Source: a virus
IMG/VR virus record: IMGVR_UViG_3300036823_000156
Span: 19,960-83,959 of that record
Strand: one strand, 5' to 3'
Length of the DNA: 64,000 bases
Shown here piece by piece: positions 31,122 through 34,978 of this stretch (the first letter of the stretch is position 1; each line of letters begins with the position of its first letter). The notes beneath the pieces were generated by a model that had not been told where the DNA came from, ran no database searches, and saw only the letters and a program-made list of their open reading frames with translations. Position numbers and translations under genes: made by a program.

Positions 31122-31317
31122 TCCGCTCCTCTTCCAGTGAGACGATCAACTGCCGGAGGGATCCGGCAATCGCTTCGAAGTCCAGCACGTACTCCGCATG
31201 CACGCGCTGGTCGCGCTTGCGGGCGATCCGCAAGATGTTCTCGCAGGTGTCCAGCGCCCGCCGGGCGAGCGTCAGATGCAGTGGGTACAAAGGTGTCCTT
31301 TCCAGACGGTTCAGAAC

Positions 31318-31892
31318 CGCACGGGCATTACTAAATGGCGTGCGCCAGCATGGTTGGCTCGTGCGGAGCGAGGTCCGCCCGGCCGGCGGGTCTACTTGGC
31401 GCACAGGAGGTCATGGCCAACCGGGCGGAGCGAGTTCCCAGCCTGCGTCCCGCTATGGGTACACGATAATCACTGGCAGACCGGGAGGTGGAGCCGCCCG
31501 GCTGGCGACCGATTTCTGGAGCGCGCTCCGTACTGGCCAGCCGGGCGGAGTAGGTGATCGAGCGGTCAATTTTGGTGTGTCGCGAAGTAATGGCTCGATC
31601 GGAAGGGGACCGCCCGGCTGGCGGGGTCGGGGTGGAGTGCGATGTGAGCTGGCCAACCGGGCGGAGTGGTTCCGAGGCGGGACACATTTGGGGTGCGCCA
31701 CGAAATGGCCTCGGTGTGTTGGGCCGCCCGGCTGGTGGCATTAGTTGGAGTGCGACACTCTGATGACCAACCGGGCGGAGTAGATGACCGGGCATAACGA
31801 TATGGAATGCGAATCGCGTTGGCCCGATCAGAAGGGACCGCCCGGCTGGCGGTTCAAGATGGGTTGTGTCGGATTTCTGGCCAGCCGGGCGG
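31318..31892 (-). ncRNA. TIGR-like stem-loop guide array, about 10 units (downstream of Tas-like gene)
   Basis: About 58-nt periodic hairpin units: stem-CCA-N8/9-(CRCnnn)-CCA-N9-stem on the - strand; alternate units share the CCGCCCGGYTGG stem. Confidence 0.8.
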
Positions 31893-31896
31893 AGTC

Positions 31897-32823
31897 TCAG
31901 GCCGCGTCCTGCAGGTCGGGCGGTCCGAAGCCGTGGGCGACGTGGATGGCGCGGGACTGCCGCCACAGGTCGCGCAGGACCTCCTTGGACACGCACCGCA
32001 GGGCGCGAGCGTGGATGTGGTTCTTCGACAGCGGGGTGCCGGCGAGCGCGGGGCTGCCCGAGGGTCCGCATCGGACGCAGGCCAACTCGTGCACGGCGTC
32101 GGCGTAGAACTCCTTCTCCTGGTCGTAGACCTCGCGGTACGGGCCGCCGGACTTCATGCAGGACTCGGAAATCATCCGGCAGCGCATCCGCGCGGTGACC
32201 GACCAGTTGACCTTGGTGCCCTTGCGGCGGGCCGGAGCCAGACCGGCGATCACGCTGTAGCCGGAGTAGCTCCACAGCTCGGCGATCGTGCGGGGGCGGC
32301 CCATCTTGACGTTCCAGTACGGATCCCCGATCGCGGCCAGCAGTCGACCGACCTGCTTGGCGCCCAGGCCCTTCTGCGCCTCGATCCAGCCGTACAGCGG
32401 GTGGTCCTGAATGGTCTTCTGCAGGTTCTTCGTCGCGTTGACCTCGGCCCGCTGCATCGGCGGCACGATCAGGCCCATCTGCCACACCATCGGGTTCCAG
32501 CCCTTGGGCATGGTGAAGATCTTGCGGTTGGCCGCGGCCTGGATGGACAGGTGCGTCTCGACCTCGTCGAGCACGGCCTGCACGAGGTCGAAATCCTCCT
32601 CGTCCTCGGGCACGTGGATGTTCGGGGGCAGGAAGCCGAAGCCGACGTCCTTGCCGTCCTTGTTCATCCGGGGCAGCACGAGCTGGCGCAACCGGTTCTG
32701 GTTGGCGATGCGCACGCGCTCCATGTCGTCGAGCACGTCGGCGGCCATCGTCAACGTGGGCGGCGACATCAGTTCGGCGAGGGGATTCGGTACCGCTTCG
32801 ACCTCTTCGATCTCTTCTGTCAT
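31897..32823 (-). CDS. Nop/IS110-C-terminal-domain RNA-binding protein, nuclease-less (TasA-like)
   Basis: RIANQNRL coiled coil, HPLY.W....GLG.....LLA.IGD, LWSYSG, RRKG...NWS, YR..YD..K, H.HARALR...K..L.DLW; no DEDD RuvC or HNH seen. Confidence 0.75.
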   Translation of the reverse strand: MTEEIEEVEAVPNPLAELMSPPTLTMAADVLDDMERVRIANQNRLRQLVLPRMNKDGKDVGFGFLPPNIHVPEDEEDFDLVQAVLDEVETHLSIQAAANRKIFTMPKGWNPMVWQMGLIVPPMQRAEVNATKNLQKTIQDHPLYGWIEAQKGLGAKQVGRLLAAIGDPYWNVKMGRPRTIAELWSYSGYSVIAGLAPARRKGTKVNWSVTARMRCRMISESCMKSGGPYREVYDQEKEFYADAVHELACVRCGPSGSPALAGTPLSKNHIHARALRCVSKEVLRDLWRQSRAIHVAHGFGPPDLQDAA

Positions 32824-32850
32824 GCACTTTCTCCTTGGGTGGGTGGGGAT

Positions 32851-33216
32851 TCCGACTGACGGGGAGTGCTGGTCGCACGATCGCTGATGGTCAGTCGGAG
32901 CGGTGGTCCGCTCGGCCGGCGGGATGACTTGTGTCGTGCTTCCGTGTTGGCCGACCGAGCGGAACTCGGTCACCCGGCCGACGTCGTCAGCGTTGGTTCG
33001 CCGCGCGCTGTTGGTCGACCGGGCAAATCTCTTCGGGTGGAACCGCCCGACTGGCGAAAGGTGTTTGGGCAGCGATCGCTCCTGGCCAGCCGGGCGGAGT
33101 CGGGCCCGTTGCCGACACGACGATTGTGAGTCGAGTCGTGCGGTGGTCGGCAACGGGAGTGGGCGTCCGGCCAACGTTCACCCGTGGGGCGCATGGGTCG
33201 AGCTGGTCGGCCGGAC
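32851..33216 (-). ncRNA. TIGR-like stem-loop guide array, 6 units (upstream of Tas-like gene)
   Basis: Six hairpins with paired TGG (CCA on - strand) boxes about 18 nt apart; starts just after the conserved motif at 33220. Confidence 0.78.
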
Positions 33217-33219
33217 TGA

Positions 33220-33232
33220 AATGTACACTAAC
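33220..33232 (-). promoter_or_regulatory. Conserved GTTAGTGTACATT motif upstream of the TIGR-like array
   Basis: Exact aatgtacactaac. Confidence 0.7.
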
Positions 33233-33258
33233 ACAGGTCGGTGTAGCGGTAATGATCC

Positions 33259-33692
33259 AAGCCTCGCCTCGCCTGGCCGCGCCCTGCCCAGCCTCGCCCC
33301 GCCATGCACCGCCTTGCCTAGCACCGCATCGCCAAGCGCGTCCGGCAGCGGAGTCGAACCGCTGCTACGACCATCCGGACAACCATTCTCCCAGCCTTGC
33401 CATGCCGCGCCATGCCTCGCCGGGCACCGCCCAGCCTCGCCACGCCGAGCGTGCTGCCCCCGGGAGTCGAACCCGAGATGCGACCATCGCAGCTACCATT
33501 CTCCTAGCCACGCCGCGCACCGCCGCGCCCTGCCGCGCCGAGCCACGCCATGCCAAGCCACGCCCTGCCGAGCGTGCTGCCCCCGGGAGTCGAACCCGAG
33601 GTACGACCATCGCAGCCACCATTCTCCTAGCCTGGCCCAGCCGCGCCCTGCCCTGCCGAGCCACGCCCTGCCCTGCCGAGCCACGCCACGCC
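33259..33692 (-). ncRNA. Array of four (GGC-NN)11-15 pentamer tracts separated by mini tRNA-like elements (VIPR-like guide RNAs)
   Basis: Tracts 33259-33333, 33392-33446, 33505-33569, 33628-33692; separators carry GGTTCGACTCC T-arms. Confidence 0.8.
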
Positions 33693-33705
33693 CTGCATCT
33701 TCGCG

Positions 33706-34191
33706 CTAGGCGCGAAGTTTCTTGGGAGCGTTGCGCTCCAATTCTGCCACTCGCTCGGCGAGTGACCGAGTTTCGCGGCGGCGGCGGCCGTTGATCTCGG
33801 CCTTGCGAGCTGCTACGCGTTCCTCGAAGTCCACCTCGGCCCGCCGTTCGTGTACCAGTTCGGCACGACGGCGTTGTGAGGCATTGATCTTGGCGGCGTG
33901 ACGGTCGTCAGCGCGTGCAGCTTTCTTGCGTTGCCTGCCGATCAGCGGCACGGCGGCGTTCGGCTCCAACACCAGCCACCCGATGTTCTCCTTGGTTTCG
34001 ACCGTGTTCTTGCCGGCACGACCGAGTTCCAGATTGGCCTTGATCATCGCGCCTTGGACCGAGTTCCGGCTGGGCGCCTTGCAGTCCTCGATAGCCTGGG
34101 CATAGGTGATGACGCCACCCACCTCGGTCTCGCACACGATGTCGTACAGGATCCGCCAACGTGCCTTGCCGTTCGCAGGTTCGATGTTCAT
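33706..34191 (-). CDS. Accessory protein, putative winged-HTH plus basic coiled coil
   Basis: ATGA overlap with the RAMP-like gene; GGVITY...V....NIGW wing-like pattern. Confidence 0.6.
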   Translation of the reverse strand: MNIEPANGKARWRILYDIVCETEVGGVITYAQAIEDCKAPSRNSVQGAMIKANLELGRAGKNTVETKENIGWLVLEPNAAVPLIGRQRKKAARADDRHAAKINASQRRRAELVHERRAEVDFEERVAARKAEINGRRRRETRSLAERVAELERNAPKKLRA

Positions 34192-34763
34192 TGAGTCACC
34201 TCGACCGTGAACCTCCCGTAGAACCGGCGGAACGTGCCGACACCGATCATCTTGCCCGCCTTGGTCGCGATATCTTGGAAGTCCTCGGTCGACAGCACGC
34301 GGTCGTCGACGTCGATCTCGAACGCGCAGGACCACTGCGGGAAGATCGGCCGGACGCGCGGGATGCGCTTGCCCTCCACATTCACCATCAGGCGGCTGAC
34401 GTACGGACTGGTCGGCCCGTCGCCCCAGAGACCGTCGACATCGCGCGGCCCGTCATAGGACAGTGGCGCCTTCAGATCAAAAACCTGAAGAGCTTGAGCG
34501 ACTTTCTTGCCCGACCGGGTGATGGACCCCGCCTCCATCAGCGCCCGGAAGATGTTGTCACCCGGCAGGTACGGACCGAGCTCGGCGTTGTGGTACAGCG
34601 CCCCGACCCAGGACAACCGGTCGATCTCGGCCCTGTCCTCGTCGGTCTTGTTGGTTCGTTTGGACGTCAGTTTCTTTACGGCCCTGGTGATCGGCTCATC
34701 GGGGTCGGCAAGTCTGATGTTGTGCATGATGAGCGGCGCGATGCCGGTCAGCTCGATTCGCAT
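34188..34763 (-). CDS. Stand-alone RAMP/Cas7-like protein (Vipr-like)
   Basis: N-terminal IELTGIAPLIMH strand, PYLPG, RVRPIFPQW and C-terminal G-rich loop GVGTFRRFYGRFTV. Confidence 0.72.
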   Translation of the reverse strand: MRIELTGIAPLIMHNIRLADPDEPITRAVKKLTSKRTNKTDEDRAEIDRLSWVGALYHNAELGPYLPGDNIFRALMEAGSITRSGKKVAQALQVFDLKAPLSYDGPRDVDGLWGDGPTSPYVSRLMVNVEGKRIPRVRPIFPQWSCAFEIDVDDRVLSTEDFQDIATKAGKMIGVGTFRRFYGRFTVEVTQ

Positions 34764-34830
34764 GACTTTCCGTTCTGTGGTCAGTGTTTGACGGCAGTTC
34801 CGTCTCACTTCACATCGGACATTGTCCGAT

Positions 34831-34937
34831 CGTGCGGGCCGAGGACTCGAACCTCGGTGTGTGCCGCTCCCGCTTCCTAGCCTGGCCCCGCCAAGCCCTG
34901 CCCTGCCGAGCCACGCCCTGCCATGCCGAGCCCTGCC
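34831..34937 (-). ncRNA. (GGC-NN)12 tract plus mini tRNA-like element upstream of the RAMP-like gene
   Basis: 12 perfect pentamers at 34878-34937 followed by GCGGG...CCGAGG-TTCGAGT-CCTCGG-CCCGC-ACG. Confidence 0.8.
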
Positions 34938-34944
34938 TTGCAAG

Positions 34945-34978
34945 AATGTACACTAACGTAGGTCGGTGATCGCGTCAA
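34945..34978 (-). promoter_or_regulatory. SigA-like promoter containing the conserved motif
   Basis: TTGACG-17 bp-TAGTGT(ACATT) immediately before the first GGC-NN tract. Confidence 0.7.

What the first reader, a model, noticed from the sequence alone, without database searches (positions are those of the whole stretch)
33392..34937. NN letters of the pentamer tracts decode as codon positions 1-2 (wobble-skipping guides)
Seen (+ strand NN order). 34878 tract: TA TG CC AA CT CT GA AC CT AT GA CT. 33628 tract: TA TG CA GC CT CT GA AC CT CT GA AC AC. 33505 tract: TA AC GC CC GC CT GC GA AC AT AA AC CT. 33392 tract: CA TT AT GC AT TC GG CC CA TC AC. Inference: adding one free base after each NN gives protein-like strings: W/C-P-K/N-L-L-E/D-T-L-I/M-E/D-L, W/C-Q/H-A-L-L-E/D-T-L-L-E/D-T-T (these two look like variants of one helix), T-A-P-A-L-A-E/D-T-I/M-K/N-T-L, and F/L-I-A-I-S-G-P-H/Q-S-T (resembles the lead-in to a P-loop). 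Guides would then hit coding strands while skipping the wobble base, making them resistant to synonymous escape. The 33259 tract decodes less convincingly.
Basis: inference. Interest (0 to 1): 0.88.

Follow-up and report, generated by a model that had tools for sequence, protein, structure and literature searches.

The report
Phage VIPR guide RNAs, gapped code

Summary
All four NN lists match the sequence. NNGCC runs (GGCNN on the minus strand) occur only at 33259-34942 of this 84-kb soil phage genome.

The locus is a VIPR system (bioRxiv 10.64898/2026.04.26.720920, .720927, 2026.10.15.759431):
- The 191-aa gene between the tracts matches the solved SUSP1 Vipr protein (E 2e-22) and folds as a Cas7/Csm3 RAMP.
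- A conserved accessory gene follows it.
- One guide lies upstream and four downstream, each with 11-15 GGC/NN units. Four carry a structured 3' tail.

For VIPR, the "pair two, skip one, skip base on the codon wobble" rule and its escape-proofing rationale are already shown experimentally.

Direct tests on this window's guides were negative. Exact gapped scans of viral, genome and metagenome collections, plus mismatch-tolerant local searches, gave nothing above chance.

Indirect support:
- NN letters are 48% GC in a genome with 89% GC at third codon positions.
- vr1 and vr2 are related guides.
- One relative's guide matches a DNA-methylase catalytic motif in wobble register.

New member of a known kind. 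The scan has found VIPR before on other DNA. The tRNA-like tails are the most unusual feature.

The parts
34878..34942 (-). vrRNA1 repeat tract upstream of vipr. It has 12 GGC-NN units plus a degenerate 5' unit (UGCAA). NN in RNA sense: [AA] AG TC AT AG GT TC AG AG TT GG CA [TA].
34833..34877 (-). vrRNA1 3' tail: a tRNA-like minihelix. The acceptor-like stem is GCGGG/CCCGC, stacked on the T-arm CCGAGG-UUCGAGU-CCUCGG.
   Evidence: The MFE fold gives exactly this structure. Covariation across 30 tails supports it.
34188..34763 (-). vipr gene (P0001, 191 aa), a RAMP protein.
   Evidence: phmmer versus PDB 36pp_D 'SUSP1 Vipr protein' gives E 2.3e-22 over the full length. It matches phrog_4652. The AF2 model has pLDDT 91.8. 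Top Foldseek hits are Csm3/Cas7.
33706..34191 (-). vap-like accessory gene (P0002, 161 aa), with a basic C-terminal half.
   Evidence: Homologues lie directly downstream of vipr in 26 of 80 related loci. It has no Pfam, PHROG or PDB family.
33628..33697 (-). vrRNA2 repeat tract. NN: [AG] GT GT TC AG AG GT TC AG AG GC TG CA [TA]. It is a variant of vrRNA1 and contains an internal 4-unit repeat.
33570..33627 (-). vrRNA2 tRNA-like tail: stem GCUGC/GCAGC plus a T-arm with loop UUCGACU.
33505..33569 (-). vrRNA3 repeat tract. NN: AG GT TT AT GT TC GC AG GC GG GC GT [TA]. One unit is UGC instead of GGC.
33447..33504 (-). vrRNA3 tRNA-like tail.
33392..33446 (-). vrRNA4 repeat tract. NN: GT GA TG GG CC GA AT GC AT AA [TG]. 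One unit is UGC.
33336..33391 (-). vrRNA4 tRNA-like tail: stem GUCCGG/CCGGAC plus T-arm GCAGCGG-UUCGACU-CCGCUGC.
33259..33333 (-). vrRNA5 repeat tract of 15 units, three of them UGC. NN: GA GG TA AA GG AT GG GA TG AG GC CA GA GA [TT]. It has no tRNA-like tail, so it may be a decayed or differently finished guide.
34943..34978 (-). Possible promoter for the operon, read by eye as TTGACG-17 nt-TAGTGT. The shared motif AATGTACACTAAC..AGGTCGGTG recurs at 33220-33245.
   Evidence: Read directly. The consensus scanner did not call it, so this is inference only.

Best explanation
Window 33259-34978 (minus strand) is a two-gene VIPR operon of an uncultured soil phage. The order is vrRNA1, vipr, a vap-like gene, then an array of vrRNA2 to vrRNA5.

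By homology with the characterised SUSP1 and P. fulva systems, the mechanism would be as follows:
- One Vipr protomer binds each GGC-NN unit and hides the GGC.
- The two NN bases are presented for pairing with double-stranded DNA in which every third base is skipped.
- The filament then blocks transcription of a rival mobile element.

Because the read pattern has period 3, a guide laid on a coding sequence with the skipped base on the wobble position reads only amino-acid-determining bases. This is the published rationale for the code.

What is shown here: family membership, the vrRNA anatomy, the absence of self-targets, and an NN composition that fits codon positions 1-2. What is inferred: that these five guides obey the 1-nt skip rule, that their targets are coding, and the maturation route. 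The natural targets remain unknown.

Four of the five guides end in a tRNA-like acceptor/T-arm minihelix instead of the SUSP1 pseudoknot. I infer this could let host tRNA-processing enzymes cut the array into single guides.
For: Published background:
- VIPR consists of Vipr plus 9-16 GGY/NN repeats plus a 3' tail. The 1-nt skip rule was shown in silico, in vitro and in vivo, with skip bases mostly on the wobble.
- Cryo-EM shows GGY sequestered and one target base flipped out per unit.
- The wobble register blocks escape.

Membership:
- P0001 versus SUSP1 Vipr gives E 2.3e-22 over the full length. SUSP1 H17, K33, R39, R138 and R179 are conserved, and W178 is replaced by another aromatic, F.
- The AF2 model (pLDDT 91.8) hits Csm3/Cas7 RAMPs.
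- IMG/VR holds 217 relatives, and 67 of 80 fetched loci carry GGYNN tracts, almost all on the vipr strand.
- A P0002 homologue lies next to vipr in 26 loci.
- The architecture of one guide upstream and an array downstream matches SUSP1.
- No self-target exists at skip 0, 1 or 2.

Code:
- The 66 NN dinucleotides are 48% GC in a genome with GC3 0.89.
- Codon-position-1-2 models beat the genome dinucleotide model by +7 and +16 bits. Every model that includes position 3 loses by 38-57 bits.
- The same holds in 48 high-GC relatives.

Clade-level target:
- A vrRNA of L023 matches L003 with 9 consecutive perfect units under the 1-nt skip. The match lies in a 1611-nt ORF, with the skip on codon position 3, spelling LWASPECTN.
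- That 18-base pattern has at least 120 IMG/VR hits. 63 of the 80 stored hits are in wobble register.
- With 9-unit seeds there were no pairs at skip 0 or 2.
Against: No natural target was found for any of the five guides.

Exact 1-nt-skip patterns:
- IMG/VR gave 0 hits for vr1, vr2, vr3, vr4 and vr5.
- GTDB genomes gave 0 hits for vr2.
- vr3 hit only a Verrucomicrobia PQQ-propeller gene linker (23 of 26 letters). About 0.07 hits are expected by chance, and this is an implausible target for this phage.
- The merged vr1/vr2 pattern gave 11 metagenome hits. None was exact to either guide, and the count is in the range expected by chance.

Other tests:
- Mismatch-tolerant search of 2.4 Mb of related phage DNA never beat shuffled guides.
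- Skip 0, 2 and 3 controls could not be run at collection scale.
- The NN letters also show an intrinsic bias (few C at the first letter), so composition is not a clean test.
- D177, essential in SUSP1, is T in this protein.
- No RNA data exist.
Confidence: 0.8

Rival explanations
1. It is a VIPR system, but in this divergent actinophage clade the guides use another register or another kind of target: a different skip length, non-coding DNA such as promoters or other vrRNA loci, or decoy sites. Decoding the NN as codon positions 1-2 would then be misleading for these five guides.
For: No coding target was found for any of the five guides. The G-loop residue D177 is T here, and UGC units occur. 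Published vrRNAs also target REP elements and vrRNA loci. vr2 has an internal 4-unit repeat.
Against: The thumb and G-loop residues that set the geometry are conserved. A relative's guide fits the 1-nt skip in wobble register on a catalytic motif. The NN composition excludes registers that cover GC-rich third positions.
Confidence: 0.12
2. The tracts are protein-coding or tmRNA-like. Read in one minus-strand frame they give A-G-x-G-x pentapeptide repeats that end at the TAG of GGCUAG. GenBank annotates the equivalent stretch of Gordonia phage Trine as part of gene 40.
For: Open frames run through the tracts (ORF 33365-33664; Trine gene 40). A T-arm-like element follows each tract.
Against: The period is 5 nt, not 3, and what is conserved is GGY rather than any reading frame. 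The frames stay open only because GGCNN rarely makes a stop codon. ARAGORN and Rfam find no tmRNA or tRNA. The adjacent protein is a Vipr, which explains the tracts fully.
Confidence: 0.02
3. The tracts act as DNA, for example as iterons or binding sites near replication genes, rather than as RNA.
For: In Trine the locus lies next to DNA polymerase and primase genes.
Against: In 67 loci the tracts are almost always on the vipr strand. The tails show compensatory base changes typical of RNA helices. vrRNAs of homologous systems were sequenced and co-purify with Vipr.
Confidence: 0.02

Closest known systems
VIPR systems of the kind characterised in Escherichia phage SUSP1 and a Pseudomonas fulva prophage, called type II in the paper (bioRxiv 10.64898/2026.04.26.720920; structures 10.64898/2026.04.26.720927; biology 10.64898/2026.10.15.759431)
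   Same: The Vipr protein is homologous over its full length (E 2e-22). The operon has vipr plus a small accessory gene. One vrRNA lies upstream and an array downstream. Each guide has 11-15 GGY/NN units followed by a structured 3' tail. The element is phage-borne and has no self-targets.
   Different: The tail is a tRNA-like acceptor/T-arm minihelix, not a pseudoknot. Some units are UGC. The G-loop Asp177 is Thr. The accessory protein has no detectable family. The host is probably a high-GC actinobacterium. The targets are unknown. I could not assign the locus to one of the paper's seven types, because its figures and tables were not available.
Class 1 CRISPR-Cas backbone (Cas7/Csm3 filaments on crRNA)
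   Same: Both have the RAMP fold with a G-loop and thumb. One protomer binds per RNA repeat period, and bases are flipped out periodically. Top Foldseek hits are Csm3 and type VII Cas7.
   Different: This locus has no CRISPR array, and the operon itself holds no other cas genes. The period is 5 nt with only 2 pairing bases, rather than 6 nt with 5 pairing. The guide is hard-wired in the gene rather than acquired.
tRNA-punctuated RNA processing (tRNA-like elements used as RNase P/Z cleavage signals; from my own knowledge, not tested here)
   Same: An acceptor-like stem stacked on a T-arm with a GUUCRANYC loop separates consecutive functional RNAs.
   Different: The element has no D-arm and no anticodon arm. 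ARAGORN and Rfam do not call it. Cleavage has not been shown.

Membership tests
VIPR system | A Vipr protein: a minimal RAMP (RRM core, G-loop, thumb) homologous to characterised Vipr. | tested here: met
   phmmer versus PDB 36pp_D gives E 2.3e-22 over residues 2-189. H14, R138 and R179 are invariant in 24 relatives. The AF2 model hits Csm3/Cas7 with Foldseek probability 1.0.
VIPR system | vrRNA genes made of about 9-16 tandem GGY-NN units with variable NN, on the vipr strand. | tested here: met
   There are five tracts of 11-15 units, GGC apart from five UGC units and a degenerate 5' end unit on vr1 and vr2. They are unique in the genome. 67 of 80 related loci have such tracts.
VIPR system | A conserved structured 3' tail after the repeat tract. 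| tested here: met
   Four of five guides carry a tail. 10 of the 11 predicted pairs show compensatory changes across 30 tails. The tail type differs from the published pseudoknot, and vr5 lacks a tail.
VIPR system | A minimal operon of vipr plus a vap accessory gene, in a viral genome. | tested here: met
   P0002 homologues lie next to vipr in 26 loci. G000 is an IMG/VR virus record estimated 92% complete. Homology of P0002 to a named vap1-6 gene was not testable.
VIPR system | Target recognition by the 1-nt skip rule, with natural targets in rival mobile elements. | tested here: inconclusive
   No target above chance was found for the five guides. One relative's guide fits the rule in wobble register.
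VIPR system | vrRNAs are expressed, processed to about 100 nt, and bound by Vipr. | not testable with these tools
   No RNA holder was listed for this DNA.
VIPR system | No self-targeting by the system's own guides. | tested here: met
   The best own-genome scores at skip 0-2 equal those of shuffled guides. The guides spell no own-proteome peptide.
CRISPR-Cas (class 1) | A CRISPR repeat-spacer array and further cas genes (Cas5, Cas6, large subunit, adaptation genes). | tested here: not met
   Rfam finds no CRISPR repeat family. The repeats near the gene are 5-nt GGCNN tracts and a 123-nt vrRNA unit. The operon has only two genes. A dedicated cas-gene scan of the whole genome was not run.
tRNA / tmRNA | A full cloverleaf, or a tRNA-like domain with a tag reading frame. 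| tested here: not met
   ARAGORN finds 0 genes in the window. Rfam finds 0 matches. Only the acceptor-like stem and T-arm are present.

The most novel reading that the evidence does not exclude
A subclade of actinophage VIPR systems has replaced the pseudoknot tail with a tRNA-like acceptor/T-arm minihelix. Host RNase P, RNase Z or the CCA-adding enzyme could then cut and finish the guide array. This would be a vrRNA maturation route I did not find in the searched text of the VIPR papers. The same subclade may have relaxed recognition of the first G (Thr in place of the essential Asp177, with UGC units tolerated).
Probability: 0.4. Interest if true: 0.5.

Novelty: new member of a known kind. 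Interest (0 to 1): 0.3.

Why it matters
The wobble-skipping code would have been a striking idea a year ago, but it was published and tested experimentally in 2026, so the finding is a correct rediscovery. The remaining value is modest:
- It places a soil actinophage lineage firmly in the VIPR family. The family's characterised members come from Escherichia and Pseudomonas.
- It corrects at least one GenBank annotation (Trine gene 40 runs through a guide array).
- It offers five guides with unknown targets.
- It points to a tRNA-like tail that may link guide maturation to host tRNA processing.

Tried and rejected
- **tRNA/tmRNA reading:** ARAGORN and Rfam found nothing.
- **Peptide-coding reading (A-G-x-G-x ending at TAG):** rejected once the neighbouring gene proved to be a Vipr.
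- **Exact 1-nt-skip scans in IMG/VR:** 0 hits for vr2 with 12 units, vr3 with 11, vr4 with 10, vr1 with 11 and vr5 with 11. The shared vr1/vr2 core gave 3 low-GC, out-of-register hits, judged chance.
- **Exact scans in GTDB genomes:** vr2 gave 0 hits. vr3 gave 2 orthologous hits in a Verrucomicrobia PQQ-propeller gene, judged chance.
- **Merged vr1/vr2 pattern in JGI metagenomes:** 11 hits, none exact to either guide, falling in E/K-rich helices and an enoyl-CoA hydratase C-terminus.
- **Local mismatch-tolerant searches at skip 0-3 with shuffles:** nothing in the own genome, 80 related loci or 2.4 Mb.
- **Decoded peptides:** no match against 84 Vipr homologues or the phage's own six-frame proteome.

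Full report
**What is there**

The window belongs to a single 83,959-bp contig with 67% GC. It is a virus record estimated 92% complete and is held in two soil metagenomes. It has no close cultured relative; the only DNA matches are about 70% identical stretches of Gordonia phage polymerase genes.

Runs of NNGCC at 5-nt spacing, which read as GGCNN on the minus strand, occur only between 33259 and 34942. There are five tracts, all on one strand.

On the minus strand the order is:
- tract 1 (34942-34878) with a structured tail;
- a 191-aa gene (34763-34188, P0001);
- a 161-aa gene (34191-33706, P0002);
- four more tracts (33697-33259). The first three of these are each followed by a 58-nt tail, which gives the 123-nt period seen by TRF.

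**What it is**

A note from the same scan on this stretch used the word "VIPR-like". That led me to three 2026 preprints. They describe Viral Interference Programmable Repeat systems:
- The system is a minimal RAMP protein (Vipr), usually an accessory gene (vap), and vrRNAs made of 9-16 GGY/NN units followed by a constant 3' tail.
- A search of the E. coli pangenome, competition binding assays and GFP repression all showed that only targets of the form xNN (one skipped base per unit) are recognised.
- Most natural targets are coding sequences with the skipped base on the wobble position.
- Cryo-EM shows each protomer hiding GGY and flipping out one target base.
- The October paper argues that the codon register makes targets unable to escape by synonymous change.

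**Membership**

- P0001 matches the solved "SUSP1 Vipr protein" (PDB 36pp_D) at E 2.3e-22 over its whole length.
- From that alignment, SUSP1 H17, K33, R39, R138 and R179 are conserved here. W178 is F, K82 is S, and D177, whose alanine mutant is inactive in SUSP1, is T.
- An AlphaFold model built on 24 homologues (pLDDT 91.8) finds Csm3/Cas7 subunits of type III and type VII CRISPR complexes as best folds.
- IMG/VR holds 217 relatives. In 67 of the 80 fetched loci there are GGYNN tracts, almost always on the vipr strand and within about 1.5 kb.
- P0002 has homologues directly downstream of vipr in 26 of those loci, so it is the conserved accessory gene, though it has no named family.
- The layout of one guide upstream and an array downstream is the same as in SUSP1.
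- Gordonia phage Trine carries the same module. GenBank annotates its gene 40 through the guide array.

**Testing the code on these guides**

Local searches:
- In the phage's own genome, the best scores at skip 0, 1 and 2 equal those of shuffled guides. Skip 3 only finds the guide genes themselves.
- The same holds in 80 related loci and in 2.4 Mb of high-GC phage DNA.

Exact xNN patterns of 10-12 units:
- None matched in IMG/VR for any guide.
- vr2 had no match in 596 Gb of GTDB genomes.
- vr3 matched one orthologous gene in two Verrucomicrobia MAGs, in the linker of a PQQ-propeller protein. It reads ATAPALAETMKTP in wobble register with 23 of 26 letters. About 0.07 hits are expected by chance for 22 fixed bases. 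The host and the gene are implausible targets for this phage, so I treat it as chance but cannot exclude it.
- A merged vr1/vr2 pattern gave 11 metagenome hits, about the number expected. None was exact to either guide. Most lay in E/K-rich helices out of register, and one was the C-terminus of an enoyl-CoA hydratase.
- A looser shared-core pattern gave three low-GC chance hits.

Decoded peptides:
- They match no Vipr homologue.
- They match no protein of the phage itself, so these are not guides against rivals' alleles of the phage's own genes.

The search was limited to exact matches in the large collections and could not include the skip 0, 2 and 3 controls there.

**Indirect evidence**

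- The 66 NN dinucleotides are 48% GC, although the genome is 67% GC and its third codon positions are 89% GC. All models that include position 3 lose 38-57 bits.
- High-GC relatives show the same pattern. They also show a general shortage of C at the first letter, so part of the signal is intrinsic to vrRNAs.
- vr1 and vr2 are related guides: 16 of 24 letters when aligned from the tail, against 3-11 for other pairs (p 0.0009). This fits two alleles of one target. vr2 also has an internal four-unit repeat, which lowers its complexity.
- At clade level, an all-against-all search of 275 guides on 1.4 Mb gave one non-ascertained 9-unit perfect match at skip 1, none at skip 0 or 2, and 0.1 in shuffles.
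- That match is a guide of L023 on prophage L003. It lies in a 1611-nt ORF with the skip base on codon position 3 and spells LWASPECTN, which looks like the catalytic motif IV of C5 DNA methyltransferases (my own knowledge).
- The 18-base pattern occurs in at least 120 IMG/VR contigs of mean 66% GC. 63 of the 80 stored hits are in wobble register by longest ORF, and nearly all read ..LWASPECT(N/K)...
- A second guide (L015 on L024, 17 of 18 letters) is also in wobble register, in a protein that looks like an HK97 gp10-type head-tail protein (my own reading; no family search was run).

So the rule appears to hold in this branch of the family.

**How it most likely works**

- Shown: this is a Vipr with its vrRNA genes.
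- Inferred from homology: Vipr polymerises on each GGC-NN unit, the NN pairs read DNA with one base skipped, and binding silences transcription of a competitor.
- Inferred and unverified: the five guides' targets are coding and in wobble register.
- The tails: among 270 tracts in relatives, 31 (in 16 loci) are followed by a T-arm-like element, against a 0.36% background. An RNAalifold consensus of 30 tails gives a 5-bp acceptor-like helix stacked on a 6-bp T-arm with an invariant GUUCRANYC-type loop, and 10 of the 11 predicted pairs show compensatory changes. The T-stem was part of the selection, but the acceptor-like helix was not.
- The text of the first VIPR paper mentions pseudoknot tails and hammerhead-interspersed arrays but not tRNA-like tails. 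The October paper's text also has no occurrence of "tRNA". Processing by host tRNA enzymes is my inference.

**Verdict**

This is a new member of a known kind. The same scan has reported VIPR loci on several other genomes.

Noticed in passing
window 33336-33391, 33447-33504, 33570-33627, 34833-34877 (minus strand): The guide tails are tRNA-like minihelices: a 5-6 bp acceptor-like stem stacked on a T-arm with loop UUCGA(C/G)U. 10 of the 11 predicted pairs show compensatory changes across 30 tails from 16 loci. I did not find this tail type in the text of the first VIPR paper.
   Followed up: partly
window 33259-33569 (units in vr3, vr4, vr5); P0001 residue 177: Five units read UGC instead of GGC. 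The G-loop Asp that contacts the first G in SUSP1 Vipr (D177, essential there) is Thr in this protein and its nearest relatives, but Asp in most of the clade. This may mean relaxed recognition of the first base.
   Followed up: no
window 33220-33245 and 34943-34966: Two near-identical copies of AATGTACACTAAC(A/G)(C/T)AGGTCGGTG lie one on each side of the VIPR module. On the minus strand they read like a -10 region heading successive operons. The consensus promoter scan did not call them.
   Followed up: partly
L001 2452-3255 (Gordonia phage Trine, MH271318, gene 40): The annotated 'hypothetical protein' gene 40 runs through two vrRNAs and three tRNA-like elements. The real ORF probably starts near locus position 2960. 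Gene 41 is the vipr.
   Followed up: partly
L023 10702-10751 and L003 12194-12220: A guide of a 148-kb viral contig spells LWASPECTN, which looks like the catalytic motif of a DNA cytosine methyltransferase, as carried by an actinobacterial prophage and at least 120 other viral contigs. It does so in wobble register.
   Followed up: yes
window 33259-33333: The fifth tract (15 units) has no tRNA-like tail and runs straight into the repeated promoter-like motif. It may be a decayed guide or one finished in a different way.
   Followed up: no
window 31317-33216: Another note of the scan calls the neighbouring stretch a TIGR-Tas-like module. I did not examine it.
   Followed up: no
window 33699-33717: A perfect 8-bp palindromic hairpin (CTTCGCGC-TAG-GCGCGAAG) spans the stop codon of the accessory gene, just before vrRNA2.
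   Followed up: no
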